A DNA stretch of 51,898 bases, counting the filler, from Dimargaris cristalligena (Eukaryota): assembly GCA_003614675.1 (NCBI GenBank). It is 3 parts of 3 records of this genome, joined end to end, with 100 filler letters (N's around TTAATTAATTAA, not from the genome) between each part and the next. Parts side by side here need not be neighbours in the genome. Positions count along the whole stretch, not along the records: positions 17,335 to 34,566 come from ML002814.1; 2 more parts are not named here. One strand, 5' to 3'. The translations under genes were made by a program, and so were the position numbers. Shown in pieces: positions 10,113-23,512 of this stretch (its first letter is position 1; each line of letters opens with the position of its first letter). The notes beneath the pieces were generated by a model. That model did no database searches. It saw only the letters and a list, made by a program, of their open reading frames with translations, and had not been told where the DNA came from.

Positions 10113-12831
10113 ATATTGTCATATCGCCAAGCCAGCTGATAGAGTCACCCAACAGCCAACTGCGCCCTAACCGCCTTTTATTTAAAATAGTCTATATACC
10201 ACATACCCCACTTCATTTTTGTAGTCAAATAGCGAACCGTTCGGCCCACTATGGCCCTACCTAGTCTCCACCGGAAGCCAGCGCTGGTGGTGAGTATTGG
10301 ACCGTTTTGGGCGTCGGGCCGAGGAGTTTTTAAACTAGGACCGTCCAATTTTACCGACGAGTTAAAAAAGTGGTTGCACAATGGCCTTCGGCTCGGTCAC
10401 CCACTTTGTTCATTCTATATTTAACGACGAGTCTACTATTATACCAAACCGACGGAATGGTTTTACGGTAGACCCCTCCCTCTCCCTCGCCACTCTATTC
10501 TCGGCTAGCAGGAAACTGGCTTGTATTGTTACGAAATGGGCGTGTATTTTTAAAATTCATTGTATTGCGCAGGCCCCCCCCGGACTCAACCCCGCCTTAT
10601 CCTATATATATCAACTGGCACGTTCGCCATCCCAGTTTCAATTAACTCTATTACTGTTGCCATTTTTCTATTGAGAGCCCGGTTTTCGGCCTCCCCCCCC
10701 TCTTCCCCAAGTTACTTTACTCATAGCCCCATTTGATAGCGCCTCGTGCTAATATAATACTACGCCTGTTCACCCCACGCTTCTATAGTTTAACCAACTT
10801 TCATACACTCTAATTGCCCTTGGAAAAAACGTGAATTTACCTACTTCTTTCCCCTTCGGCTCTCCTCTACCCTTAATTTTGGGTACCCTGCTGCCTTTAC
10901 CACCCATCCAACAGCTACTAGTATTGGTTAAGCACTAATCAATTTAATTAAAACCACTATTTACGAGCTGAATGATACAGCGTATGCCGTTTACTGAGCC
11001 ACTACTTGGTTTATTTTTATCGTCCCGTTTTAGTCATTAACCGGTTATTTATATCGCCCCTCCCCTTTTGTTTACCACCGAAATCCCCTAATTTACAGGG
11101 TTACTATTGATACTGCTGTGGTCGTGTGACTCTTATGCAAAACGGTTAATGTGGTGCCTAGTACGACACTTAAATTGGATTTTGTAGTATATACGACTTG
11201 TTTGCTTTTGTTTTGCCCCTCATCGCCACACCCCCTCCCAACTCCAGCCGTCTGCCACAAAGCCATAATTATAATCACTCTCGTTTTGAACTATCCAGCT
11301 GGCCATTCGGTAAGTCCCTAGTTAATCTAGTGTATGCCACACTGTCCTATTTCCGTTTTGTTGGGCCATTAGGTTGTTATGGGTATACATAGCCGTGCCC
11401 CTGGGTACCACTGTGGTATTCGATCCCTGGTGTTTACCCTTTTGTTTAGTTACCCTGCAGTTAGCAAGTCCTTATAATCCCTACCTAGCACAGTATACTG
11501 CACTGTATCATATCCCTGTCAGTCCCTGAAGTGCCCTCCTCCCCTTTATGTTCTTCCCACTATCTTTAATATCATTTCGCCCATACCGGTTGACTTAACA
11601 CTCATGATACCGTATTACTGGTTTAAGCCGGCCTGTCCCAAAAATTAAGCGAAAGATAAAAGGGAAAATGCCCATTACTACTACAGCAAGGGGCCGCAGG
11701 GCACTGTGTAATGCTATGTACCACCACCGCCGACTAACCACTATCCATGTATCTTTGCTATGTATACTGCTTTGGTTTATTATCATTCCCTGGACTATTC
11801 TCGTATAGCTACAACTCACGTTAAAGGTCTAAATAACCCATACATAACAGATACAATAGGGGAAAATAATACAGGGTCACTGGAGGAGAACCCAGTCCCA
11901 TACCCTGAGCGCGCACTTTGCCTTGGCTTCTCTCTGCCTCACCCCTCTTCCCCTTTTCCCTTCGTCGCCTTCATTTGGGTCAAGTGGTGAATTGTGGTCG
12001 GACTGTTTTTTAAGCAACCCTCCCCACGGCGCGATATAAAAGGATTGCCCTATCCACCCCCTCCTTCTCGGTACATTGTCGCCTTTTACCTCGCTATTCT
12101 CAATCGTCCATCTTTCCCGTCTAATGCCCTAACAACGCCTACTCTCCACCCAACCCCCAAGACTTAATATTTCTTTCTACGCGCCACCCAGCCGTATTTA
12201 TTCCACATCCTTCGCGCTTCTCCCTATTTTCTTTTCTTTTCTATTCTTTGCGTCATCACCTTCTCGGATTTCAGCCTCGCTTCGCCCATCGCTTGGTCTT
12301 TTACGGGGGTTTATTATATACTTTCATAGGAGCAGTTCGTTACAGCCCACGTTGACCTAATTCTTGACCTCCCCGCCTTTCGTTTGTGGTCTGAACCGCC
12401 GGGTTGAGCCTATTCATTTAATTCCTCTCTAACGACACCCTACTGTTGCTACCAGTCTAATATATAGTCCAGTATTACCCCTCTCCTACCTTCTGGGTTA
12501 CTGCTTTGGTCCATTTGAACTCACCGGTCTTCTCATCTTCGCCTTCTCATTACGCTTATCACTCTCTGTTAGGCTGGGTTGATACTACACTCCCCATTCT
12601 ATTACGTCGATATACCCTTCTTTTCACTTTGTCGTCTATAAGAGATTGCTCTTTCTACCATATCCCTTTTAGACCATTGTCTTACTTAGCTTTCTCTTCG
12701 ACTGGCAATCACCCAGCGTGTTTTTCTCTTACCTCTCCGCCTCTACTGCATCCGGTATTGTTATTACTGGTGCTCCATTTCCCCCCCTCCCCTTCATAAC
12801 CTCACAAGTGCTTGAACTAGATATTTCCATC

Positions 12832-15800
12832 ATGACTAACACTGACTGGCTACCCATTACCGTACACGACCCTCACACTGGCTCCGAATGGAGCTACAGT
12901 CTACAATGTCTCGGTAGCTGCATAATCCGCTGCAATACCTGTACACGGCTCTTACTCCTAACCCCCCGATCATCCCGCAATATCTTCTGCACCGCCTGCA
13001 ACGAGCCCCTCGCCATTTCCCTCGAAGCGATGCTAATGACCCCCGGGGTGATTGTCAAGGCCTTCAATGTAGAAAAGCCCTTCGACATTGAACAGTTCCT
13101 GCGAGTGGAAAGCCGGGCCGGTAATTTGCGGCCATCTAGTGTGGTTCGGCTAGGCTACCTATTAGTCGAAAAGGTGGAACTCGATGACTTGACCACAGTG
13201 GACAACTGTGCCAAGTCCCGCCGGGTGAGCCCTAAATCCCTAGGCGGTGGTGGCTCTTCCTCCCCCTTGAGTGCGCGCAAGAGCTACAAGGTACTCTCCA
13301 ATATACTCAAGCGCAGCCAACCCGGTCAGGGTAAGAAGGAGCTGGCCCAGATGGGCTGGACGCAGGTTCTGGCTGTCCAAAACGGCTCCCTTCTTCGATT
13401 CTACGCAACCAAGCCCCAGCGGCAGGAAGAGGGCCACCTCCAACACGTTCTGCTCGAAACCCTCGACTTGACCACCGCGGACATTACCCATCTGCAATCC
13501 GGGCGGCCCAACGCTCACCAATCGACCCACGAGACCAGCTCCACTAGCGTGGGTGGACTAATGTACCATGCCCCCCGTCCCGCTCGACTACTATTGACGA
13601 CCCAGGACGCCCAGTACACCATTAATGTGGGTACCGACCTGCTCACCGGTTGGTGGCAAACTTGTCTGGAGAAGTCCGTCCAGGTTTCCCGGGAGCGCAC
13701 CGCGGCGATTCTCAAACTCCAGGCTACTTCGCCACCACGCTACGGTGCCAAGGGGGCCACACCCCTCAACCTCGCTATAGATTCGCCCATCCGCAAGGAT
13801 ATCCCAACCCCCATCATTGCCGCCCCCCAGATTGTGACCCCACCCAATTCCTCCACCGTGTCTGCGTCGTCCGAACCCCCCCTTCGGACCATCTCCACCG
13901 CGTTCCAGCGCGACATGACACCCGGCCAAGTTCGACCAGTGAATTTGAGCGACCCTATCCTGGGTGAGGGAGTCCGCGCGGCAGCCGATAAGCCTTACCT
14001 TGCGCCTCGTCTGTCGTCGTTGGAGGCCGCTTTCAGCGAAGGCCCCCCCCACCGGTCCCGGGGGGTCACTGGCTACCCCACCTCAGAACGGGACAATGGA
14101 GGTCTTCTTCCTTCCCCAACCTCCCCTTCTTCTTCCACTTCGTCTTCCTCCGCCTCCCCCTCCTCCGCAGTTTCATTCCCGAAGCGGGGACCCTCGTCAT
14201 GTGGGGTTGGATCGGGCCCCCTCGATTGGGCCCAATCCGAAGGTCAGAAGGATTCGGTGGCGGCGCCACCGTCGGTCTGCCCCGCCACCAAGGAGCCGTC
14301 GCCTACCCTCAGTTACACCACTACGGCCTGTAACAATAGTGTCTGTAGCGATGCCTCTTTAACTTTCTCCGTAGATACATCCGACCGGGAATCTATTTTA
14401 TCTCTCGACTTTGACGATAACGACGACAGCGACGAAGGCGCCAATACTAACCCCAAAATGAACTCCCCCACCTCCATCTCCGTTATGCAACCCACTTCTT
14501 TTGTGCGGGTACGGTCGTCCGGCTACACCGTGATTTCCAAAGACAATGCTCAACCGAAGCGGAAAACCAGTATCAAGGTGAACCCCAAACGCATGTCGCG
14601 CTATTTCGAAGATTCGCCTCTGGCCAATATCGACTTTTCCGACGCTTACGAAGTTGGGCGTGGGTTGGCCGCTGCCCTCGATAGCCGGATGTCCAGTGAT
14701 AATCCCCCGGTGCCCACTGAACTGTCCCCTACTTCATCCACCACGGCTTCAACCACCGCTTCTACCACAGTCCAAGCCCCCCCTCTCGCCGCCCACCGGC
14801 GGGTCGCCCCCGTCCCCCCGCCCAAGCCCCGCCGCTCCCTCATTCGGGCCGTGGCTAGTCAGGAGCAATTGCGGCGGTCGTACCATAGCGGCAGCACGAC
14901 TGCCCCCCCGCCGATGCCCCAGCCCACCTTGGCCGTGGTCCCCGTCTTCACCAGCACCGTCAGCCTGAAGGAACTCACCGGTAAGAAATCTACACCCAAT
15001 CCCACCGCCTCGGGTGCAACCCCCCACCCCGCTAGTTTTTCGGCATGGAAGTCTTCCATTCGCCGCCCCGAGAATACTACCATGACGACAGCGAACCCCG
15101 CCTCCTCCATCTGGACCATGCCTCCCCCGCGTCCTGCCCATCACGCGGTGCTAGGGCCCCGGAGCTACCCGTTCGTCCCCCAGACGAAAATGACCACGAC
15201 AATGGTAGCGGAAAGCCACAGTGACGATAGTGATGATAGTTTATCTGATGGTCTGGAATTCTTGCACCCCACCCCGTCCCTGCGCAGACTCGGATCCTCG
15301 CCTAATTTGACCGCGGTGCGGTCGATGGACCTGGCCACCTACAGCCAGATCTCCCAAGTCTCGCTAGCTAGTACTGGGTATTTGGAAGGAGGCCAGCAGC
15401 CGGCGTCGGCGTTGATGGCTTCCCCCGTGTCAACGACCTCCACGGCTGTCAACAGCCCGGTGCTGACCCCCTTGGCGCAATTGAGCCGACTCAATAAGAG
15501 TGCCCACTGCATTCTGAGTTCGTCCCACCTGTCCGATCTCTCCCGCCCGATGGCTTCGTTGGAAGCCCTCCCCCAGGCCCGTTCGGCTTTACCCGCCTTG
15601 GTGGGTAGCCTGGACACCAAATTCGCTCCGTCATCCTCGTTGTCCTTCAGCTCGCAATCCTCAACCGACACGGAGGAACACGACGACGACGACGAGTATG
15701 GGGTGGCTTACTCCAACGGCAAGGCCTATAATGTCCGCGCCCAGAAGCAGTTGCCCCCGACCCCCATGAACCTCAGCGCTAACAATCCCTTCCTGGCTCT

Positions 15801-15840
15801 CTTGAATAACCGGGCGACTACTCCGCTGGCCGGTCTCTAA
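12832..15840 (+). CDS. Uncharacterised 1002-aa protein: N-terminal CxxC-x15-CxxC zinc ribbon, PH-like domain, long S/T/P-rich disordered tail
   Basis: Single long ORF with GC-rich codon bias; first ATG at 12832 (the track start at 12718 is a GTG). PH-like pattern 'LGYLLVEK...WTQVLAVQNGSLLRFY...LETLDLTTADI...LLLTTQDAQYTINV...WWQTCLEKSV'. Poly-Pro motifs and a C-terminal NPF. Confidence 0.75.
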   Translation: MTNTDWLPITVHDPHTGSEWSYSLQCLGSCIIRCNTCTRLLLLTPRSSRNIFCTACNEPLAISLEAMLMTPGVIVKAFNVEKPFDIEQFLRVESRAGNLRPSSVVRLGYLLVEKVELDDLTTVDNCAKSRRVSPKSLGGGGSSSPLSARKSYKVLSNILKRSQPGQGKKELAQMGWTQVLAVQNGSLLRFYATKPQRQEEGHLQHVLLETLDLTTADITHLQSGRPNAHQSTHETSSTSVGGLMYHAPRPARLLLTTQDAQYTINVGTDLLTGWWQTCLEKSVQVSRERTAAILKLQATSPPRYGAKGATPLNLAIDSPIRKDIPTPIIAAPQIVTPPNSSTVSASSEPPLRTISTAFQRDMTPGQVRPVNLSDPILGEGVRAAADKPYLAPRLSSLEAAFSEGPPHRSRGVTGYPTSERDNGGLLPSPTSPSSSTSSSSASPSSAVSFPKRGPSSCGVGSGPLDWAQSEGQKDSVAAPPSVCPATKEPSPTLSYTTTACNNSVCSDASLTFSVDTSDRESILSLDFDDNDDSDEGANTNPKMNSPTSISVMQPTSFVRVRSSGYTVISKDNAQPKRKTSIKVNPKRMSRYFEDSPLANIDFSDAYEVGRGLAAALDSRMSSDNPPVPTELSPTSSTTASTTASTTVQAPPLAAHRRVAPVPPPKPRRSLIRAVASQEQLRRSYHSGSTTAPPPMPQPTLAVVPVFTSTVSLKELTGKKSTPNPTASGATPHPASFSAWKSSIRRPENTTMTTANPASSIWTMPPPRPAHHAVLGPRSYPFVPQTKMTTTMVAESHSDDSDDSLSDGLEFLHPTPSLRRLGSSPNLTAVRSMDLATYSQISQVSLASTGYLEGGQQPASALMASPVSTTSTAVNSPVLTPLAQLSRLNKSAHCILSSSHLSDLSRPMASLEALPQARSALPALVGSLDTKFAPSSSLSFSSQSSTDTEEHDDDDEYGVAYSNGKAYNVRAQKQLPPTPMNLSANNPFLALLNNRATTPLAGL

Positions 15841-17017
15841 AGTCGATCCAGAAAATAACATGGTCCATTACATGTCGCGAACTCCAGTGACAAAAATATC
15901 CTCAGGGTTCTATCACGTTCTCGGCCCATTGCCTCAAAAATCGAAACTAATATGTTACTCTTGTATATATATTCTTGTAACGAAAAAAAGAAAAAAAAAA
16001 GCAACTACACATTTATGTGGGGCCTATATTATTTCATTTGCTCAAGACACCATTTGGTCTTTATATCGAGCTTGCTTTTTTTTTTACATTCACGGTCATC
16101 CTCACTCAGCCTTACTTCCCATTGTATTCAACCCTGTCATTCAAGTTTAACTATATATATATATTCGTCTCATGTTTTCAGTATTTTGTTGTCATCTGGC
16201 CTGAATTCGTTCAACCACGATTATCACATCCACCACTGTGTATATAATGCCATTAACGATAAGTTTCGTGCCCCCTCCTATCTTACCCGCCATAGGTAGA
16301 TAAAACATGTATTTTTGACTTCCAATAAATCTAATGATGCCTCAACTCTCCGCCAATTTATATTTGCCCAACTAGCCACCCCTCCAATATGCACTACTTC
16401 TCCTAATTCACCAGTCACTCTTATTGACTGTCCGATGGCTGCCTCTATTAACCAACAAGGTACCGATAAATTAATATTAATGGCTTGGCAAAGTTGGTGT
16501 TGTATGGGTTTATTCGCCCCAAGTTAATATTCCTAGTAGCGGTATCTGCATCCAAGTAAGATATTTAATAGAATCCCGCTTTTTATTTTTCCTATTCCTG
16601 AGCATCCATTTGGCAACTAATGCTAAAAACTTACATCACCTAGTGTACAACACATGTAACTCATCGAAATGATATTACAAAGTAGGTCCACTAAAAAAAA
16701 AATCTGGGTAAAATAATAGGAAGTGTGCATAAACTGACAACACGTAGACAAGATAACAAGACGTTCAAGGCTTTGCCAGCAAGTGGTAAGCTAATAATAA
16801 AATGTATATGGAATAAGTCAATCACCTAAATAATCGATGCAGGCATAGTGCAGCACATTTTTAAGCACACACTATTGTATCCTCCAAAAAATTTAAGGAC
16901 ATATCAAATCCAAGGATCAATAATCTTGAGAATTACCCAAAGAATAGGATAAAATGACTTGCACAAGAGTGGGAGTCAAAATATAGTGAAGATCACTGAT
17001 AAAAAAACTCAAAAGAA

Positions 17018-17090
17018 AGGTCTCACCGAGATTCAAACTCGGGTCACGGGAATCAGATTCCCATGTGATAACCAACTACACTATGAAACC
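17018..17090 (-). tRNA. tRNA-Gln(CTG), possibly a pseudogene (T-loop TTTGA instead of TTCGA)
   Basis: The minus strand GGTTTCATAGTGTAGTTGGTTATCACATGGGAAT-CTG-ATTCCCGTGACCCGAGTTTGAATCTCGGTGAGACCT folds as a cloverleaf. Downstream T-runs could act as a Pol III terminator. Confidence 0.85.
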
Positions 17091-17234
17091 AAATGGAAAA
17101 ACAACAACCCCTGTCCAGCTAAGTGAGTTGGTTGTTATAAGGGCCTGGTTTCTTTCCAGGGTCTGTTCTTTATTCTACCTCCTGTCCTTTCCCTCTATAT
17201 CTGTAGCTTTTGAGGGTTTTTGACCAAATTACCC

Positions 17235-17334
17235 NNNNNNNNNNNNNNNNNNNNNNNNNNNNNNNNNNNNNNNNNNNNTTAATTAATTAANNNNNNNNNN
17301 NNNNNNNNNNNNNNNNNNNNNNNNNNNNNNNNNN
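17235..17334. other. Artificial contig linker (N44-TTAATTAATTAA-N44)
   Basis: Exactly 100 nt with a six-frame-stop core, identical to the linker at 34567-34666. Confidence 0.97.
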
Positions 17335-17642
17335 AGGGAGGGGAGTTCCCAGACAATAATATTAGTCATTACAAAGGATAGGTAATACTTGGGTAATCAA
17401 TAAATTCAATGTAAAACAATAGAAGGGAAAAAGGGAGAAAGAGGAAGCTATTTTTAACTGTGCTTTGAACAGGGGTACAGTCGGGCCAGGGGTAGTGTGA
17501 ATGCAGGGGTATTGTCCAGTTAGGGGTAGGGGTGCAGCTAAGTCAATGGTATAAAAATATACTAAAGGAAAAAATACTATTACTAATGAAAATGTAGTAA
17601 AAATGACTATACTTATCAGGGGCAGGGGCTCATTCACTCATC

Positions 17643-17789
17643 AGGGGTGTACTTCCAATAAGTGCAAAAAATAGATAAAAAATAAAAGTAGGTAAAAAAT
17701 GTAGTAAGTTTACCACAAGGGGCATATTTCCGATAAGTATGAAAAATAGATAAAAAATAAAAGTAGGTAAAAATGTGGTATGTTTACCA
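17643..17789 (+). repeat. Tandem duplication with 75-bp period inside the transposon relic
   Basis: 17643-17715 and 17718-17789 share AGGGG..TA.TTCC.ATAAGT...AAAAATAGATAAAAAATAAAAGTAGGTAAAAA(A)TGT.GTA.GTTTACCA. Confidence 0.9.
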
Positions 17790-18230
17790 TAATAGGCTTC
17801 TCCCAAATTATGATTTTGGTCTTGCTGAAACTGTGGATTCCCTCCCAGACCATAAGGGATTGGTGGCTAGAACTGAATGTTGGCAGAAGGTTTTGAGGTA
17901 CATAAGTCTGACCAGGCCTTTGGAGTACTCTTTGATTTATATAGGTACCCCCAATCTAAAATAAACTTTCATCAGAAAAAAATACAGATTTCCACTTTTT
18001 GATACTCCAATCTTTTTACTCTTTTGCAAAGTTAAGATGCTTGATCCAGTTGGTGGGTAATATATATGGCTTTTTTCTTGCTACCCAGGACTCTAGATTG
18101 GCCTCCTTTAATGCCCTTTGAATTGTCTGCCATGATATACTCTGGCCAGGGAAGACAATGGTTGCAATACCCTGATTAGCATTAAATGGATGGGCTGCTG
18201 CATATCTGACTAGTCTGTGCTTATTGCACT
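17782..18230 (-). pseudogene. Tc1-family transposase fragment (second HTH plus start of the DDE domain)
   Basis: Reads 'RLVRY...ISWQTIQRALKEANLESWVARKKPYILPTNWIKHLNFAKE*KDWSIKKWKSVFFSDESLF*...SLMVWEGI'. This matches the Tc1 motifs ARKKP, W..V.FSDES and MVWG, with in-frame stops. Confidence 0.85.
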
Positions 18231-19192
18231 GCCATAGGCAGGGATGGGATTTTGTGTCCATGAGTAGGTATGAGTGTCAGATGTTATTACCCTTACTCAG
18301 CATGGGATGAAACAACAACTTGCAGCTCCAGAAGATTATTCTATCCACAGTGCCTGAGGGGTTGACTGCTTTCTCTAAATTTAGTAACAGATTTTACCTT
18401 AGTCAGATTTTCCTCATTCTTACCTTCATGAAAACCTAAAGTTGATTCCACATAGCAGCAAGTGAGGGTGAGGGAATTATCCTTGAGAAGAACAAAACAG
18501 TGATGTTATCTTCTATCCCCTCTTGTCTCATGATCTATCCTTATATTGTGAATACCTTGGTAAATCCAAGGTAGTTTCCAATTCCCAAAGCACCTTCCAA
18601 ATACACAAAGCTGAGTTTTAAGTCTTAAAATATTTAGCTAGTTTTCTCCCTCCATAGTTTTATAGCTGAATAGTCCTGACCAACCTCTGTAGTGACCAAA
18701 GTTTAGTATATCTTCCCTCATATGTATATATAGTCTTGTAGTTGGCTTTAAGAACTGACAATTTATCCTCAAGATAAGTTTTTATAATTCAGAATAAATA
18801 TCTATTCTTAACTTCACCCAGTGTCTTACTCAGTATCAGTTGATGACTTCAGCCAGAAGCCAATTAATATTTTATTCCTTTTATTCACTTTATTTTCTCT
18901 ATAACTGGTTTATTAGCATGTAGCCACCATGGCTCCCCCAGTCCCTAACTCTGATGATGGGAGTTTAGGATTGATTTATTTGGGGTATTTTCCACTGTAC
19001 CCCAGTTCCCACTCAAACAGTAGTTCTGACCTGCTTTAACAAGCAGAAGGACCATTTCCCAAGTTCTCCATGTTCCACCCAGGCACTGACCCCTTGAACC
19101 TGATGTCTGGTGAACCTCTTATCCTGGGAGAAGTTAAGGAGAATCCCTCCAGCTCTTCCCTCAATATGGAGGGCCCTCAAATAACTGGCAGA

Positions 19193-19390
19193 ACACTTGT
19201 TATAGTTATTGAGAATCTTGTTACAGCCCCTGCATTGCTTAGGAGCCTTTGATCCATTATTATTACTTGTGTTTATCACCCAGTAAACTGTAGCTCATGA
19301 GACACTAAGAATGTACATAATCATTGGGGCTTTTACACCTTCTTTAAACATATTACAGAGAATATCAGGCTTCTTAGGGGATAAATTCAT
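19193..19390 (-). pseudogene. Tc1-family transposase N-terminal HTH fragment
   Basis: Reads 'MNLSPKKPDILCNMFKEGVKAPMIMYILSVS*ATVYWVINTSNNNGSKAPKQCRGCNKILNNYNKC'. Restoring CpG codons gives VSRATVYRVI...RRGR.KIL...DKR, typical of Tc1 N-termini. Confidence 0.7.
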
Positions 19391-20115
19391 TTTAAAAACT
19401 CATTATGTTAATAAAGGTGAAAGAAAAAAATCCCGTAAAAATATTACTTTCCCTGAAGTAGAAAGGAAAAATTTCCATGTGAAAATTTGTTTCTCTATCT
19501 TTCTCCTTCTTTTATTCTTTCCTACCATCCGACCCTATTAGTTTATTATATTTTTACTATCAAAATTTGTCTCTGCCATGTTCTTTACACAGGTGCACGA
19601 CGACTTTTCGGTTATTGCAGACTGTGGACTTGTCCAATTGGCGTAATAAGCATTGCCAATAAATAACAAAACATTGACGGCATCTATCAACGATAATGGG
19701 TGTATACCATAATAAAGAGGAGACACGAATTAATTAGTTATGGTATAAGACATTTAAAAAGAAAGAAATATGAATATAAAAAAATGGGGTTTAATATATG
19801 GCACCCCATCACAATAATTTTTTGTCTCACTTTTGCTGGCCATGACTGTACCATATCAGGATGTGGGAGGGTACGGCTTTATATATAGATATACAGCTAT
19901 ATCTATAAGCGCATCGCGAGTTTGAAAAATTGCCTGTTTAAGTCGAGGATAGAAAGTAGTGGAAAGTGTAATAGAAATGCTAAAAAAACTAATTGATTAT
20001 AGACGAGAGATGCTAAAGTGCAATCCAAATATTGAATTGTAGAGGAGAAACGGAGAATAATCAAGAAGGGTTATGTAGAGGAAAAAAAAGAGCGGAAAAT
20101 AATGGAGGGGCGCGG

Positions 20116-20119
<4 letters not shown>

Positions 20120-20147
<28 letters not shown>
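20120..20147. repeat. (TA)n microsatellite
   Basis: Uninterrupted TA dinucleotide run downstream of the W2-domain gene. Confidence 0.9.
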
Positions 20148-20154
<7 letters not shown>

Positions 20155-20427
20155 TGTGTATGTGTTTCGAGGACTAGAAATAGTTTGGTAGAAAAGGGAG
20201 GGGGTGAGCAGGACCCATAATGACTAGCGAACCAAAAGTAAGACACATCATGTCTACTGCATCGTGGACAAGGTAAGTAAATGCCTATTAAAATCAATGG
20301 GACCCTTGCTTTCTCTTTCAGTATATATATATATGAATAATAAACCTTTTTGCATGGCCAATTTTTAAAAGGCTGGTTACAGCAAGGATATAAGGCGACA
20401 AGATTACTCTTAGCCCCTTTACTATAA

Positions 20428-22958
20428 TTAATCGCTATCGTCGTCGTCCTCCTCTTCGGCGTTCGACAACCACTCTATGAACGGCGCCACCTTCTTTTTG
20501 ATTTCGCTCGTTGCGGGAGTCTCAGCATTCCATTTCAGGAACACGTCTTCCTCGATCAAGTCCAAATCATAGTTGAGCTTGAAGACCTGGGCGGCTTTGG
20601 GCAACCACGCACCGCCACCCATAGCGGCCGTGCTGTGATATGTGGTGAGGAAGCGGTCCCAAGCATTGAGCAGTAAGCGCTGGTCGGACGCCGACTTGAG
20701 GTAGTTGCTGAAGAGGGGCTTGTAGTGAAGCAAGGTGAGCCGGATGTTCTCGGGAGTGGGCCCCGAACCCAAGGAAGCCGGTGTATCTAAGAGGGCAGGG
20801 ATCAACAGCTGGAAGATTTGCTGCTTGGCGATATCGTGGCGGAATTCAAATCGGGTGATGTCCTTGGCGATCTCAGTCAGGGATCGCTTGGCACCACCAG
20901 TGCTACTATCAACTGGGGTAGGGGGCAGCAGTTGGCGAAGCTCGTTGATGAGAAGCTCGTCCTGAGCCGCGCGCGAGGTGGTATTAGTTGCGGCGGCGGC
21001 GGCGGCATGGGCAGCCGGGTCCCGAAGGTTAGGCGGGGGTTGGGTGAATTTGGCCATTTCCTCGGCGTCCATGGCGATAATGCGGGGCCGGCGGGGATCG
21101 CTACCGTTGGTATTGCTCTTCTTGGGCTTATTAGCCTTCCTACTCGGCTTGGCCTTGGCTGCGTCCTCAGGAGCAGCCGGGGATTGGGCCTGCTCGGGCG
21201 ATTGGGTTGAACTGGCGGTCTCCACGGAGGCCAGAGCCAGTGATTGGCGGTTGGCAGACATGTCCATGAAGGAAGTAGGGGCGGCCAGCGGGGTCCGGGG
21301 CTCCAGGAGAATGGGCTCGCGGTTGCGGTTGCTGCTCATGCCCCCACTGTGGCTATAGCCGGACTGGTAAGGGGAAGGGGTGTAGTGCCCCTGGTTGTCG
21401 TATTGGCTCTGGTACTGCTGCTGGGGGTGGTGGTGCTGGGAATGGCCCATGTTGTCGTAGCTGGGGTATGGGTGCTGGGGGGCGGGTCTACGTTGTAGCT
21501 CCTCGTTCCCGTGGGCGTAGGTGCATTTATGGCCATAGGGGCAGAAATTATCGCGCATGAATTTCTCACAGATTCTAGTTTTGTATAACGGGTTGTCAGC
21601 GGGGTTGGGCCGGTGGGACTGTTGGGTAGGGTTGCCGCCGCCATAGGGACCCGAGCGACCGCTGTCCTCGTAGTACGGATTGGGGCTCTGGCTGTGATGG
21701 CCCTGGTCGTGCCCGTGGTTGGGGCGGGTTCGGAGCTCAGCTTCACCGTGGGCAAAGGTGCACTTATGGCCATAGGGGCAGGCACCTTCGGTCTGGAAGG
21801 TTTCGCAGAGGCGTGTCTTATACAGGGGGCTGTCGGCTGGGTTGGGACGAGCTCCGGTCTGGGGAGGCTGGCCCTCACCGATGGTCGGACTCTGGTTGGG
21901 GGATTGGTGGTTGATGCGCATGCTTTGCATACGGTAGGTGATGCCCTGAGCATCTCCGCCATCGACGGAACCTGGACCATAGGGCCGGCGCTGGTGCGGT
22001 GGCCGATAGGAACTAGGGCCACCGTCCTCGCCGGTAGGGTAGGAGCGGCCACCCGAGGGCCGCGGGGCGCGCGGTCCTTCAGAACCGTATTCACCGGAGT
22101 CAGCCCGGGGGTAGCGACGATTACCGGCATCCCCTTCCACCACGCGCTGATGCGGGGGGCGGTACGCACGGCGAGTATCATCACCCCGGTCTTCGTCGGG
22201 GCTGGAAGAGCCGGTGGGACGCACGGGCGCGGGGCGGGCGCGGGGGCTGGGCTGGGCGAAGCGGGCGCGATTCTGCTCGATATAGTCGTGGGCGTCGGTC
22301 AGCACGGTCTGCATATTCGCATACATGGCCTTGTCAGTGGCATTTTCCAGGGGCAACCACGAGTGAATCATACCGGCACCCATACGGAAGGTGCGGTTGG
22401 GGTCCACCAGACGGGCTAGGTAGTAAGTAACATTCTTGGCCTGGGTACCCGACAGGTATTTAATAGAAGCGGAGAAATCGGGGTCAACCTGGAGATCTTG
22501 GATAGTCAGACCGGCCACATCGAGGGTCACGCGGATAGCGCACCTAGACGAGAGGTTCAACAGGGGCGAGAATATAAATATAAATGTATGGGTGTGAGTA
22601 TGGATATAGGTATACGGAGACTGGGATAATAACGGGGATTGAATCAATGGATTCGATGGAAAAGGGGCGGGTTGCTTTTTTAGAACCGGGCACTCAGGGG
22701 TCAATAGGGTTCTCCGAGGGGACACCGACCCAGGCGGGGTGGCGATGGGCCTTCCCACTCACCGATCACGAGTCGGACAGGTTGTTTTTATAATAGGTAG
22801 TGGGAGACTTACTGTTGCACTTCTTCTTGGCCAACGACTTTGCCCTTGGGGGGAGTCCAATGACGACGGTGGTTAAAAGTGTCGTTAATTAACAAAAACT
22901 CGGGTTGGTTTTTTTCAAGGCGAAAAATCAAGAGCCCGGCAGCGTTGATTGTCGACAT
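20428..22958 (-). CDS. 753-aa multidomain protein: degenerate NUDT2/Ap4A-hydrolase-like Nudix domain + 2 TTP-type CCCH zinc fingers + C-terminal eIF5-like W2 domain; exons 22958-22813 and 22543-20428
   Basis: Exon 1 reads MSTINAAGLLIFRLEKNQPEFLLINDTFNHRRHWTPPKGKVVGQEEVQ. A GTAAGT..CTAG intron (22812-22544) joins it in frame to QCAIRVTLDVAGL. Two YKTRxC-x8-C-x5-C-x3-H fingers follow. The C-terminus 'YDLDLIEEDVFLKW...APFIEWLSNAEEEDDDDSD' matches W2 AA-boxes. Confidence 0.9.
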
Positions 22959-23512
22959 GGGGCCTGGACACGAATAGAACGAGAAACACTACACTAGCTG
23001 AACCAATAAGCGAGTCGTTGGTAGACACAACTTTGAGGGGACTAGCCAAACTAGGGGAATTAGAGGAGATGCCGGAAAGGAGGAAGTTTCGAGAACCACT
23101 CTCTACAGACAGTAGCAGCGATAGGAGGAGATGGTGGGGCAGTTTTGGGAGAGAGGATCACCCGACAAACGACAAATGGGGCTGGAAAGAAATAGAAAGT
23201 GAGAGAGAGATGAGGATCGAGGTAAAGAGAACGTATGGTATGGTATAGGTCGTCACTTGCAGGTAGTAGACGGACAGAGAAGGAGGGAAACGACGAAACA
23301 AACCCACAGCGGAGTCCAAAAGGATTGATGAGACACAGAAGTGAAGGAGGTGAAGAAAAGAGGGAAATAGATGACCAGCGGCGAAAAGGGCGGATAGAGT
23401 GAGAGAGACAGTGTGTCAGAGTAAGAGAGAGAGGAAGGGAACGGACGTCACAGGGGTCTGTGTCTGGTGGGTGACACGCCTCCAGTCGAGCTCCGAGTAC
23501 TGCTAGTACTGC

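What the first reader, a model, noticed from the sequence alone, without database searches (positions are those of the whole stretch)
20428..22958. Single-chain pseudo-Nudix + tandem CCCH + W2 protein: candidate undescribed mRNA translation/decay regulator
Seen: an upstream exon missed by the ORF track (22958-22813) splices in frame. It adds an N-terminal domain that follows NUDT2/Ap4A hydrolase closely (AAGLLIFR...EFLL...HWTPPKG...KNVTYYLARL...WLPLENA...MQTVLTDAHDYI). Downstream come two YKTRxC-x8-C-x5-C-x3-H fingers, a Q/H/Y/P-rich low-complexity region and a terminal W2 domain with aromatic/acidic boxes. Established: TTP/Cth2-type CCCH fingers bind AU-rich elements. W2 domains of eIF5, eIF2B-epsilon and 5MP/BZW bind eIF2-beta. 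NUDT2 binds dinucleoside polyphosphates, which resemble caps. Inference: one polypeptide could select mRNAs, sense a cap or Ap4A, and contact the eIF2 machinery as an mRNA-tethered eIF5 mimic. I do not recognise this architecture from any characterised protein.
Basis: partly seen in the sequence, partly recalled or inferred. Interest (0 to 1): 0.92.

Follow-up and report, generated by a model that had tools for sequence, protein, structure and literature searches.

The report
Fungal dead-Nudix, CCCH, W2 protein
A real two-exon gene of the fungus Dimargaris cristalligena joins an Ap4A-hydrolase-like domain that has lost its catalytic residues, two RNA-binding zinc fingers and a translation-factor-type W2 domain; the family is ancient in early-diverging fungi, was catalogued in 2025, and has no tested function.

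Summary
On the minus strand, exon 1 (22958-22813) joins exon 2 (22543-20428) across a GTAAGT...TAG intron. The product is 753 aa and identical to the deposited Dimargaris cristalligena protein H4R33_005947. Profile and fold searches confirm three modules. First is a NUDT2/Ap4A-hydrolase-like Nudix fold (TM 0.93 to the worm enzyme). Second are two TTP-type CCCH fingers. Third is a canonical eIF5/eIF2B-epsilon-type W2 domain with both AA boxes.

In Dimargaris the Nudix box reads RVTLDV instead of REUXEE, so hydrolysis is unlikely. The ApnA-specificity tyrosine and the rest of the domain remain conserved (67-69% identity between genera).

The architecture is not new. 68 of 186 retrieved proteins carry all three modules, and every named one comes from an early-diverging fungus. 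A 2025 BMC Genomics survey lists the family as NUDIX "subfamily A", without function.

The fingers are not a true TTP tandem: the linker is 59 aa, against 18 in TIS11d.

My best reading (about 0.45) is an AU-rich-mRNA-bound adaptor that engages eIF2-beta through W2, with a non-catalytic nucleotide-binding Nudix module. RNA, eIF2 and ligand binding are all untested.

The parts
22813..22958 (-). Exon 1: start codon and residues 1-48, plus two bases of codon 49. Encodes the N-terminal third of the Nudix-like domain.
   Evidence: The N-terminus MSTINAAGL matches the orthologues P0004 and P0005. Exon 1 alone gives only a weak NUDIX match (E 0.12).
22544..22812 (-). Intron, 269 nt, GTAAGT...TAG, interrupting the Nudix box between box positions 11 and 12.
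   Evidence: GC is 0.498 against 0.612 in exon 2. Removing it reproduces P0003 exactly. No transcript evidence was obtained.
20428..22543 (-). Exon 2: residues 49 (last base) to 753, plus the TAA stop. Encodes the rest of the Nudix-like domain, both CCCH fingers, the disordered linkers and the W2 domain.
22270..22958 (-). NUDT2/Ap4A-hydrolase-like Nudix domain, aa 1-140 (spans the intron). Predicted to be non-catalytic.
   Evidence: Worm Ap4A hydrolase E 2.1e-16 and human NUDT2 about 4e-16. Family profile vs 3u53 E 8.5e-26. AlphaFold2 pLDDT is about 90. Foldseek to 1ktg_A gives TM 0.93, rmsd 1.5 A over 138 columns.
22507..22844 (-). Degenerate Nudix box, aa 39-61 (spans the intron): GKVVGQEEVQQCAIRVTLDVAGL. 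Box positions 16, 19 and 20 are V, D and V instead of E, E and E.
21748..21822 (-). CCCH finger 1 with LYKTRL lead-in, aa 290-314, C-x8-C-x5-C-x3-H.
   Evidence: Aligns to TTP, TIS11d and 9y10 finger 1 at E about 1e-13.
21511..21585 (-). CCCH finger 2 with LYKTRI lead-in, aa 369-393, C-x8-C-x5-C-x3-H. It lies 59 aa after the His of finger 1.
21340..21486 (-). P/S/Q/H/Y-rich low-complexity stretch, aa 402-450, predicted disordered.
   Evidence: Composition. pLDDT below 50. Only 31% identity to the sister genera over aa 402-575.
20431..20964 (-). W2/HEAT domain, aa 576-753. AA-box 1 is YDLDLIEEDVFLKW (20571-20530). AA-box 2 plus acidic tail is PFIEWLSNAEEEDDDDSD (20484-20431).
   Evidence: Pfam W2 59.4 bits against a cut-off of 30. 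Human eIF2B-epsilon CTD E 1e-07 over 146 residues to the C-terminus. Family profile vs human eIF5-CTD E 7.6e-18. All-helical with pLDDT about 90.

Best explanation
The gene encodes a modular, largely disordered post-transcriptional regulator.

Shown:
- A 753-aa protein with three folded modules on flexible linkers.
- The first module is a NUDT2-like Nudix fold. Its REUXEE catalytic glutamates, and the downstream Glu that most relatives keep, are all replaced.
- The second is a pair of TTP-type CCCH fingers.
- The third is a C-terminal W2 domain of the eIF5/eIF2B-epsilon type.

Inferred:
- Each finger binds a short U/A-rich element, as the TTP/TIS11d fingers do. The long variable linker lets the two half-sites lie at variable spacing.
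- The W2 domain uses AA-box 2 and its acidic tail to bind the lysine boxes of eIF2-beta, as eIF5, eIF2B-epsilon and 5MP1 do. This couples the bound mRNA to the eIF2 machinery. I cannot tell whether the result is repression (5MP-like competition) or recruitment (DAP5-like).
- The dead Nudix domain is kept as a binding module for a dinucleoside polyphosphate such as Ap4A, or for a cap-like 5' end. This parallels NUDT21/CFIm25, which is catalytically inactive, binds Ap4A, and has a similarly degenerate box (RLxxEI).
For: Architecture and conservation:
- The gene model is identical to the deposited protein.
- All three modules are recovered by Pfam, by PDB sequence searches and, for the Nudix module, by fold search.
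- 68 of 186 retrieved proteins hit all three of my domain HMMs.

Nudix module:
- The box reads RVTLDV against worm RETKEE.
- Position 20 is Glu in only 2 of 68 complete boxes, and both are in P0151, a canonical tandem NUDT2-like protein.
- Position 16 is V or S in the Dimargaritales members with a complete box (P0003-P0006).
- Val54 aligns with human residue 58, which is Ala in the structures titled 'E58A mutant' and 'E63A mutant'.
- Y78 is 68 of 68 and K85 is 68 of 68. Y78 aligns with the ApnA-hydrolase specificity tyrosine described in PMC5389931 (passages read).
- The domain is 69% and 67% identical to Tieghemiomyces and Dispira. That equals the fingers (68-79%) and far exceeds the linkers (16-31%), which indicates purifying selection without catalysis.
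- The NUDT21 box RLxxEI is given in PMC5389931. PMC7705103 calls NUDT21 catalytically inactive and Ap4A-binding (passage read).

W2 module:
- The family profile ranks eIF5-CTD (7.6e-18) above eIF2B-epsilon (3e-12), eIF4G1 (1.8e-8) and DAP5 (3.3e-3).
- AA-boxes 1 and 2 and the acidic tail align to the C-terminal end of eIF2B-epsilon and eIF5.

Fingers: C-x8-C-x5-C-x3-H with YKT(R)L lead-ins, aligned to TTP and TIS11d at E about 1e-13.
Against: - Nothing here tests binding to RNA, eIF2-beta or any nucleotide.
- The fingers lack the fixed 18-aa TTP linker (59 aa here), so the target motif may differ from the TTP nonamer.
- W2 domains also bind other partners. I recall that the eIF4G W2 binds Mnk1, and that eIF5-CTD binds eIF1 and eIF3c.
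- PMC12210691 says most members of its new subfamilies are predicted to be nuclear, and it treats them as enzymes that keep at least two metal-ligand glutamates. Many non-Dimargaritales members do keep Glu at box positions 16 and 19 and at the downstream site. The family ancestor may therefore retain some activity.
- No transcript data confirm expression or the splice.
Confidence: 0.45

Rival explanations
1. It is an active RNA 5'-end hydrolase. The NUDT2-like domain removes caps, Np4N caps or 5' triphosphates from mRNAs chosen by the CCCH fingers and starts 5'-3' decay. The W2 domain only positions it near initiation complexes.
For: The abstract of PMC8616924 reports that human NUDT2 trims PPP-RNA to P-RNA for XRN1 (search listing). 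The Nudix profile also matches the ASFV decapping enzyme g5R (6.4e-7) and DCP2 (3e-4). Many family members outside Dimargaritales keep Glu at box positions 16 and 19 and at the downstream site (34, 44 and 41 of 68).
Against: In Dimargaris all of these acids are replaced (V54, D57, V58 and Ala in 'GAG'). Box position 20 is Glu in none of the 66 family domains. The human position-16 equivalent is the residue mutated in the deposited E58A/E63A structures. NUDT21, which has a similar box, is described as inactive.
Confidence: 0.1
2. It is a TTP-like mRNA decay or storage adaptor with no link to eIF2. The W2/HEAT domain and the conserved short motifs recruit decay, deadenylation or kinase partners. 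The Q/H/Y/P-rich region drives granule localisation.
For: The fingers are TTP-type. The linkers are long, disordered and low-complexity. Conserved linear motifs lie outside the domains. I recall that W2 domains of eIF4G-family proteins bind non-eIF2 partners.
Against: The W2 ranks closest to the two classical eIF2-beta binders. It keeps AA-box 2 and the acidic tail, which PMC12439599 ties to K-box binding. No CNOT1-type motif was looked for or seen.
Confidence: 0.2
3. It works in the nucleus on pre-mRNA, analogous to NUDT21/CFIm25. The dead Nudix domain and the fingers together recognise RNA elements, and W2 acts as a protein scaffold.
For: The degenerate box pattern R-x-x-x-[E/D]-hydrophobic matches NUDT21's RLxxEI. 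PMC12210691 predicts nuclear localisation for most members of its new subfamilies.
Against: By sequence and fold the domain is NUDT2-like, not NUDT21-like. The top PDB hits are all Ap4A hydrolases, and NUDT21 was not among the matches listed. By recall, W2 domains are known only from cytoplasmic translation factors. The localisation statement is generic and computational.
Confidence: 0.07
4. The architecture is an annotation artefact that fuses separate genes.
For: Exon 1 is short and joined only by prediction. No RNA-seq was obtained.
Against: Exon 2 alone is one uninterrupted 2.1-kb frame that carries the C-terminal two thirds of the Nudix fold, both fingers and W2. The same order is found in 68 proteins from many independent genomes. 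The Nudix fold is complete only with exon 1.
Confidence: 0.02

Closest known systems
Fungal NUDIX 'subfamily A' of PMC12210691 (BMC Genomics 2025)
   Same: It has the same architecture (NUDIX, zf-CCCH and W2), is fungi-only, is related to NUDT2, and has a high content of low-complexity and disordered sequence. The window protein clusters with proteins of exactly this make-up.
   Different: The paper gives no function and treats the subfamily as enzymes with at least two metal-ligand glutamates. Dimargaris is not mentioned in its main text (0 occurrences). The Dimargaritales members have none of the three REUXEE glutamates. I could not see its Fig. 4A or its supplements.
NUDT2 / Ap4A hydrolase (human 3u53; C. 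elegans 1kt9 and 1ktg)
   Same: The fold matches (TM 0.87-0.93, 31-34% identity). The HWTPPKG motif, the specificity tyrosine (Y78) and K85 are conserved.
   Different: The catalytic glutamates are replaced (RVTLDV vs RETKEE). The domain is fused to RNA-binding and W2 modules, whereas NUDT2 is a single-domain enzyme of about 150 aa.
NUDT21 / CFIm25
   Same: It is a Nudix fold with a degenerate box (RLxxEI). It is described as catalytically inactive, binds Ap4A, and acts in mRNA metabolism.
   Different: It belongs to a different Nudix family (PF13869). It recognises UGUA RNA itself, is nuclear, and has no fingers or W2. It did not appear among the PDB matches listed.
TTP/ZFP36/TIS11d tandem zinc-finger proteins
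   Same: There are two C-x8-C-x5-C-x3-H fingers with YKTxL lead-ins and conserved aromatic positions (E about 1e-13 to 1e-19).
   Different: The inter-finger distance is 59 aa here and 26-77 aa in 38 of 38 family members, not 18. The lead-in is LYKTRL rather than (R/K)YKTEL. There are additional Nudix and W2 domains.
W2 domains of eIF5, eIF2B-epsilon and 5MP/BZW
   Same: The domain is a C-terminal HEAT-type helical domain that ends in AA-box 1, AA-box 2 and an acidic tail. In those factors these elements bind the eIF2-beta K-boxes.
   Different: There is no GAP domain (eIF5), no catalytic or NT-hexapeptide region (eIF2B-epsilon), and no BZW N-terminal region. Here the W2 is attached to sequence-specific RNA-binding fingers, which none of those factors has.
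DAP5/eIF4G2 W2
   Same: It is a W2 domain on an RNA-associated scaffold, reported to bind eIF2-beta and to promote translation (PMC4402527, title and abstract in the search listing).
   Different: It is only distantly similar (E 3.3e-3). DAP5 binds mRNA through MIF4G/eIF4A, not through CCCH fingers.

Membership tests
Nudix superfamily (PF00293) | Nudix alpha/beta/alpha fold and a Pfam match above the curated cut-off | tested here: met
   NUDIX scores 21.8 bits against a cut-off of 21.1 on the full-length protein. The model has pLDDT about 90 over aa 1-145. Foldseek TM to Ap4A hydrolases is 0.87-0.93.
Nudix pyrophosphohydrolases / NUDT2 Ap4A hydrolase (as an enzyme) | Nudix box GX5EX7REUXEEXGU with the three glutamates of REUXEE | tested here: not met
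   The box is GKVVGQEEVQQCAIRVTLDVAGL. Positions 16, 19 and 20 are V, D and V. Gly1, Glu7, Arg15, Gly22 and Leu23 are kept.
NUDT2 Ap4A hydrolase | ApnA-hydrolase specificity tyrosine (Tyr87 in 1XSC numbering, per PMC5389931) | tested here: met
   Y78 aligns with that tyrosine in the human and worm alignments. It is present in 68 of 68 domains. The definition comes from PMC5389931 passages.
NUDT2 Ap4A hydrolase | Hydrolysis of Ap4A to ATP and AMP | not testable with these tools
   This needs an enzyme assay.
TTP/ZFP36 tandem zinc-finger family | Two C-x8-C-x5-C-x3-H fingers with YKTEL-type lead-ins | tested here: met
   The regex finds both fingers, at C295 and C374, with lead-ins LYKTRL and LYKTRI. 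Matches to TTP, TIS11d and 9y10 are at E about 1e-13.
TTP/ZFP36 tandem zinc-finger family | Fixed 18-residue spacing between the fingers | tested here: not met
   There are 59 residues between the His of finger 1 and the first Cys of finger 2. The range is 26-77 (median 35) in 38 of 38 family members. The TIS11d spacing of 18 is read from the chain coordinates.
TTP/ZFP36 tandem zinc-finger family | Binding of UAUUUAU-type AU-rich elements | not testable with these tools
   This needs an RNA-binding assay.
W2 domain (PF02020), eIF5/eIF2B-epsilon type | Pfam W2 above the cut-off, a helical HEAT fold, and AA-box 1, AA-box 2 and an acidic C-terminal tail | tested here: met
   W2 scores 59.4 bits against a cut-off of 30. 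Helices span aa 570-747 at pLDDT about 90. The alignment to eIF2B-epsilon and eIF5 runs to the last residues and includes FIxWLxxAEEE. The W2 fold itself was not among the 50 Foldseek rows shown.
W2 domain, eIF5/eIF2B-epsilon type | Binding to the eIF2-beta K-boxes | not testable with these tools
Fungal NUDIX subfamily A (PMC12210691) | NUDT2-related NUDIX domain together with zf-CCCH and W2, restricted to fungi | tested here: met
   All named relatives are fungi. Whether this accession is among the paper's 84 proteins could not be checked, because the supplements are closed.
5MP/BZW eIF5-mimic proteins | Orthology to BZW1/2, i.e. an N-terminal BZW region plus W2 | not tested
   No BZW-type region was reported by Pfam on P0003, and no BZW chain appeared in the PDB searches. 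The resemblance is functional only.

The most novel reading that the evidence does not exclude
The protein is an alarmone-gated, mRNA-specific translational switch. The dead NUDT2 domain senses Ap4A, or a cap-like dinucleotide or a 5' end. That binding controls whether a W2 domain tethered to U/A-rich mRNAs by the CCCH fingers captures eIF2-beta. If so, this would be a direct link between dinucleoside-polyphosphate stress signalling and initiation-factor control. It would be ancient in Fungi (chytrids, Blastocladiomycota, Olpidium, Kickxellomycotina, Basidiobolus and all Mucoromycota subphyla) and absent from every named Dikarya hit seen here.
Probability: 0.12. Interest if true: 0.85.

Novelty: new member of a known kind. 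Interest (0 to 1): 0.55.

Why it matters
I know of no characterised protein that puts a W2 domain on a sequence-specific RNA-binding module. If the W2 binds eIF2-beta, this family would be the first example of an eIF5/5MP-like activity delivered to chosen mRNAs.

It is also a clean natural case of a NUDT2-type enzyme turning into a probable ligand-binding pseudoenzyme. In the Dimargaritales every catalytic acid is gone, yet the domain stays as conserved as the zinc fingers. That bears on the long-open question of what reads Ap4A in eukaryotes.

The family appears in most early-diverging fungal lineages but in no Dikarya hit. This explains why yeast genetics never met it, and it points to tractable models for testing: Mucor, Rhizopus, Spizellomyces and Basidiobolus.

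The 2025 survey treats the family as hydrolases. The residue counts here suggest that label needs experimental checking.

Tried and rejected
- RNA-seq confirmation of the intron: the look-up of sequencing runs listed no RNA holder (none was listed).
- Whole-genome search for other Nudix genes or eIF2-beta: no genome is held for this window.
- Search for shorter, stand-alone relatives of the Nudix domain: 197 candidates, none at E <= 0.001. The method depends on shared words, so this is not evidence of absence.
- Autoregulatory AU-rich elements in the gene's own 3' flank: there is no minus-strand TATTTAT between the stop and 19665. The nearest lie at 19659-19665 and inside the intron at 22574-22580. 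I dropped the idea.
- Fold-level confirmation of W2: the 50 Foldseek rows shown were all Nudix folds. I relied on sequence evidence and did not fold W2 alone.
- Gene-fusion artefact: rejected (see the rivals).
- Non-fungal or Dikarya members: none among the named hits. Only the best 150 of 18239 representative hits were listed, and unnamed rows remain.
- I corrected and repeated them.
Full report
WHAT IS THERE. The window holds one long open frame on the minus strand at 20428-22758. A short frame at 22809-22988 begins MSTINAAGLLIFR. Reading the minus strand shows an ATG at 22958, a GTAAGT donor starting at 22812 and a TAG acceptor ending at 22544. The frame continues across the junction and stops at TAA, 20430-20428. 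A script joined 22958-22813 to 22543-20428. The 2262-nt CDS translates exactly to P0003. P0003 is a 753-aa protein that NCBI holds as 'hypothetical protein H4R33_005947 [Dimargaris cristalligena]'. The organism belongs to Kickxellomycota, Dimargaritales.

I could obtain no transcript evidence: no RNA run was listed and no genome is held. The splice therefore rests on four points:
- The splice signals are canonical.
- The long frame has no in-frame Met before the middle of the fold.
- The joined sequence aligns to C. elegans Ap4A hydrolase over residues 4-131 vs 3-129.
- Orthologues from other genera are colinear across the junction.

THE THREE MODULES. On the full-length protein Pfam gives W2 at 59.4 bits (cut-off 30), zf-CCCH at 57.1 bits in two stretches, and NUDIX at 21.8 bits, just above its 21.1 cut-off.
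- The N-terminal 146 residues match worm Ap4A hydrolase at 2.1e-16 and human NUDT2 at about 4e-16.
- A profile of 38 family members matches NUDT2 at 8.5e-26, the TTP-family fingers at about 1e-19, human eIF5-CTD at 7.6e-18, eIF2B-epsilon at about 3e-12, eIF4G1 at 1.8e-8 and DAP5 at 3.3e-3.
- An AlphaFold2 model built on that alignment has pLDDT about 90 for residues 1-145 (alpha/beta/alpha) and 570-750 (all helical). The fingers score about 60 and almost everything else is below 50. Mean pLDDT is 64 and pTM is 0.40.
- Foldseek places the N-terminal domain on worm Ap4A hydrolase (1ktg_A: TM 0.93, rmsd 1.5 A, 138 columns, 32% identity) and on human NUDT2 (TM 0.87-0.90).
- The W2 region aligns to the human eIF2B-epsilon C-terminal domain over 146 residues, right to the C-terminus, with AA-box 1, AA-box 2 and the acidic tail in register.

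THE NUDIX DOMAIN LOOKS NON-CATALYTIC. Where the worm enzyme has RETKEE, the window protein has RVTLDV. Val54 aligns with human residue 58, which is Ala in the deposited chains titled 'E58A mutant' and 'E63A mutant'. I then examined the Nudix box in every protein held. Of 71 domain segments that covered the box, I dropped 3 for gaps in the box, leaving 68.
- Position 20 is Glu in 2 of 68. Both are in P0151, an unnamed 290-aa protein with two canonical NUDT2-like domains.
- Position 16 is E in 34, N in 21, V in 7, A in 5 and S in 1.
- Position 19 is E in 44 and D in 18. The remaining 6 are K (2), N (2), A (1) and Q (1).
- A downstream Glu that aligns with a worm Glu is kept in 41 of 68, but it is Ala in the Dimargaritales.
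- Y78 and K85 are present in 68 of 68.

Y78 aligns with the ApnA-hydrolase specificity tyrosine described in PMC5389931 (passages read). That paper also gives the NUDT21 box as RLxxEI, the same kind of degeneration. [quoted passage not shown]

Within the Dimargaritales the domain is 69% and 67% identical to Tieghemiomyces and Dispira. That equals the fingers (68-79%) and exceeds W2 (57% and 51%), while the linkers are 16-31%. A domain that has lost its catalytic acids but stays this conserved is most simply a binding module. For family members that keep RE..E plus the downstream Glu, residual activity cannot be excluded.

THE FINGERS. Both fingers are exact C-x8-C-x5-C-x3-H with LYKTRL and LYKTRI lead-ins. 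They align to TTP, TIS11d and 9y10. However, 59 residues separate them. The range is 26-77 (median 35) in 38 of 38 aligned members, whereas TIS11d has 18 (chain coordinates). They are two TTP-type fingers on a flexible tether, not a TTP tandem module.

DISTRIBUTION AND PRIOR DESCRIPTION.
- A word-indexed search found 57 relatives.
- An exhaustive profile search of 1.84 billion representatives gave 18239 hits at E <= 0.001 and 214 at E <= 1e-30, of which the best 150 were listed.
- I scanned the 186 proteins held with my own domain HMMs. 68 have all three modules, 12 have fingers plus W2, 19 have Nudix plus fingers, and 83 have fingers only.
- Several of the two-module rows are labelled partial or have longer cluster-mates. 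One example is Spizellomyces punctatus at 485 aa against 658 aa in a sister strain.
- Every named row is an early-diverging fungus. The lineages are chytrids, Blastocladiomycota (Paraphysoderma), Olpidium, Kickxellomycotina (Dimargaritales, Coemansia, Kickxella, Harpellales), Basidiobolus, Mortierellomycotina, Glomeromycotina and Mucoromycotina.
- Of the 30 representatives I looked up, 24 carried an organism name. None was from Dikarya or from outside the fungi.

Literature searches found one paper that mentions the architecture, PMC12210691 (BMC Genomics 2025; passages read). It lists 'subfamily A' with 84 proteins, 100% fungal, and says 'most have W2 (PF02020) and zf-CCCH (PF00642)'. It calls the subfamily distantly related to human NUDT2. 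It offers docking to Ap3A and Ap4A but no experiment. It states that all of its new subfamilies keep at least two metal-ligand glutamates. Its figures and supplements were not visible to me, and its main text does not mention Dimargaris.

HOW IT MOST LIKELY WORKS. What is shown is the architecture, the residue losses and the conservation pattern. The rest is inference.
- The fingers probably bind U/A-rich elements.
- The W2 probably binds the eIF2-beta lysine boxes. [quoted passage not shown]
- The dead NUDT2 domain probably binds a dinucleoside polyphosphate or a cap-like 5' end.
- The direction of the effect on translation cannot be decided. It could be 5MP-like repression or DAP5-like recruitment (PMC4402527, listing only).

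I give this reading 0.45. The rivals are:
- An active RNA 5'-end hydrolase (0.10). The abstract of PMC8616924 shows NUDT2 acts on PPP-RNA, but the Dimargaris residues argue against activity here.
- A TTP-like decay or storage adaptor that does not involve eIF2 (0.20).
- A nuclear, NUDT21-like role (0.07).
- An annotation artefact (0.02).

VERDICT.
- The residue-level case that the Dimargaris domain, and probably the whole family at box position 20, is not a conventional hydrolase.
- The non-TTP spacing of the fingers.
- The ranking of the W2 with the eIF2-beta-binding W2 domains.

Noticed in passing
window 20120-20147 and 16000-20400: A (TA)14 microsatellite lies about 280 nt beyond the stop codon. 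The 4.4 kb downstream of the gene is AT-rich (GC 0.362 against 0.612 in exon 2) and has no ORF of 120 aa or more except one that overlaps the gene's end.
   Followed up: no
window 12673-15840 (+): A 1055-aa stop-to-stop frame rich in S, P and T is the nearest large coding candidate on the other side of the AT-rich gap. I did not analyse it.
   Followed up: no
window 21936-21907 (aa 252-261) and 21093-21046 (aa 533-548): Two short motifs outside the folded domains are conserved across the family. One is MKNLNxALPLDSQR, between the Nudix domain and finger 1; in Dimargaris it reads YRMQSMRINH. The other is EKxWMKVVELSxxE, before W2; in Dimargaris it reads RRPRIIAMDAEEMAKF, with a short predicted helix at 542-548. 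They may be an export signal or partner-binding linear motifs.
   Followed up: partly
P0151 (unnamed ENA record, 290 aa): This protein has two tandem NUDT2-like domains with canonical boxes (REVKEE and RETEEE). It is the only protein held that has Glu at box position 20.
   Followed up: partly
P0065, P0073, P0076 (Fimicolochytrium, Geranomyces, Thoreauomyces): These three chytrid members also have Val at box position 16 (RVLPDV or RVVPDV) and lack the downstream Glu. This loss looks independent of, and parallel to, the one in the Dimargaritales.
   Followed up: partly
P0079, P0082, P0083, P0103, P0130 (Harpellales: Furculomyces, Smittium): These are much longer forms (852-1027 aa). Four of the five W2 domains match my HMM in two pieces, which suggests an insertion inside the HEAT domain. 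Their Nudix and finger scores are also lower.
   Followed up: no
whole window: TATTTAT occurs 23 times against 11.09 expected, and 0 of 100 shuffles reached 23. This probably reflects the AT-rich intergenic composition. None of the copies lies in the gene's immediate 3' flank.
   Followed up: partly
P0077 vs P0193 (Spizellomyces): The 485-aa S. punctatus entry lacks the Nudix part, while its 658-aa cluster-mate from S. 'palustris' is longer. Some 'fingers plus W2 only' entries are therefore probably N-terminally truncated gene models that miss an upstream exon, as the ORF track did here.
   Followed up: partly
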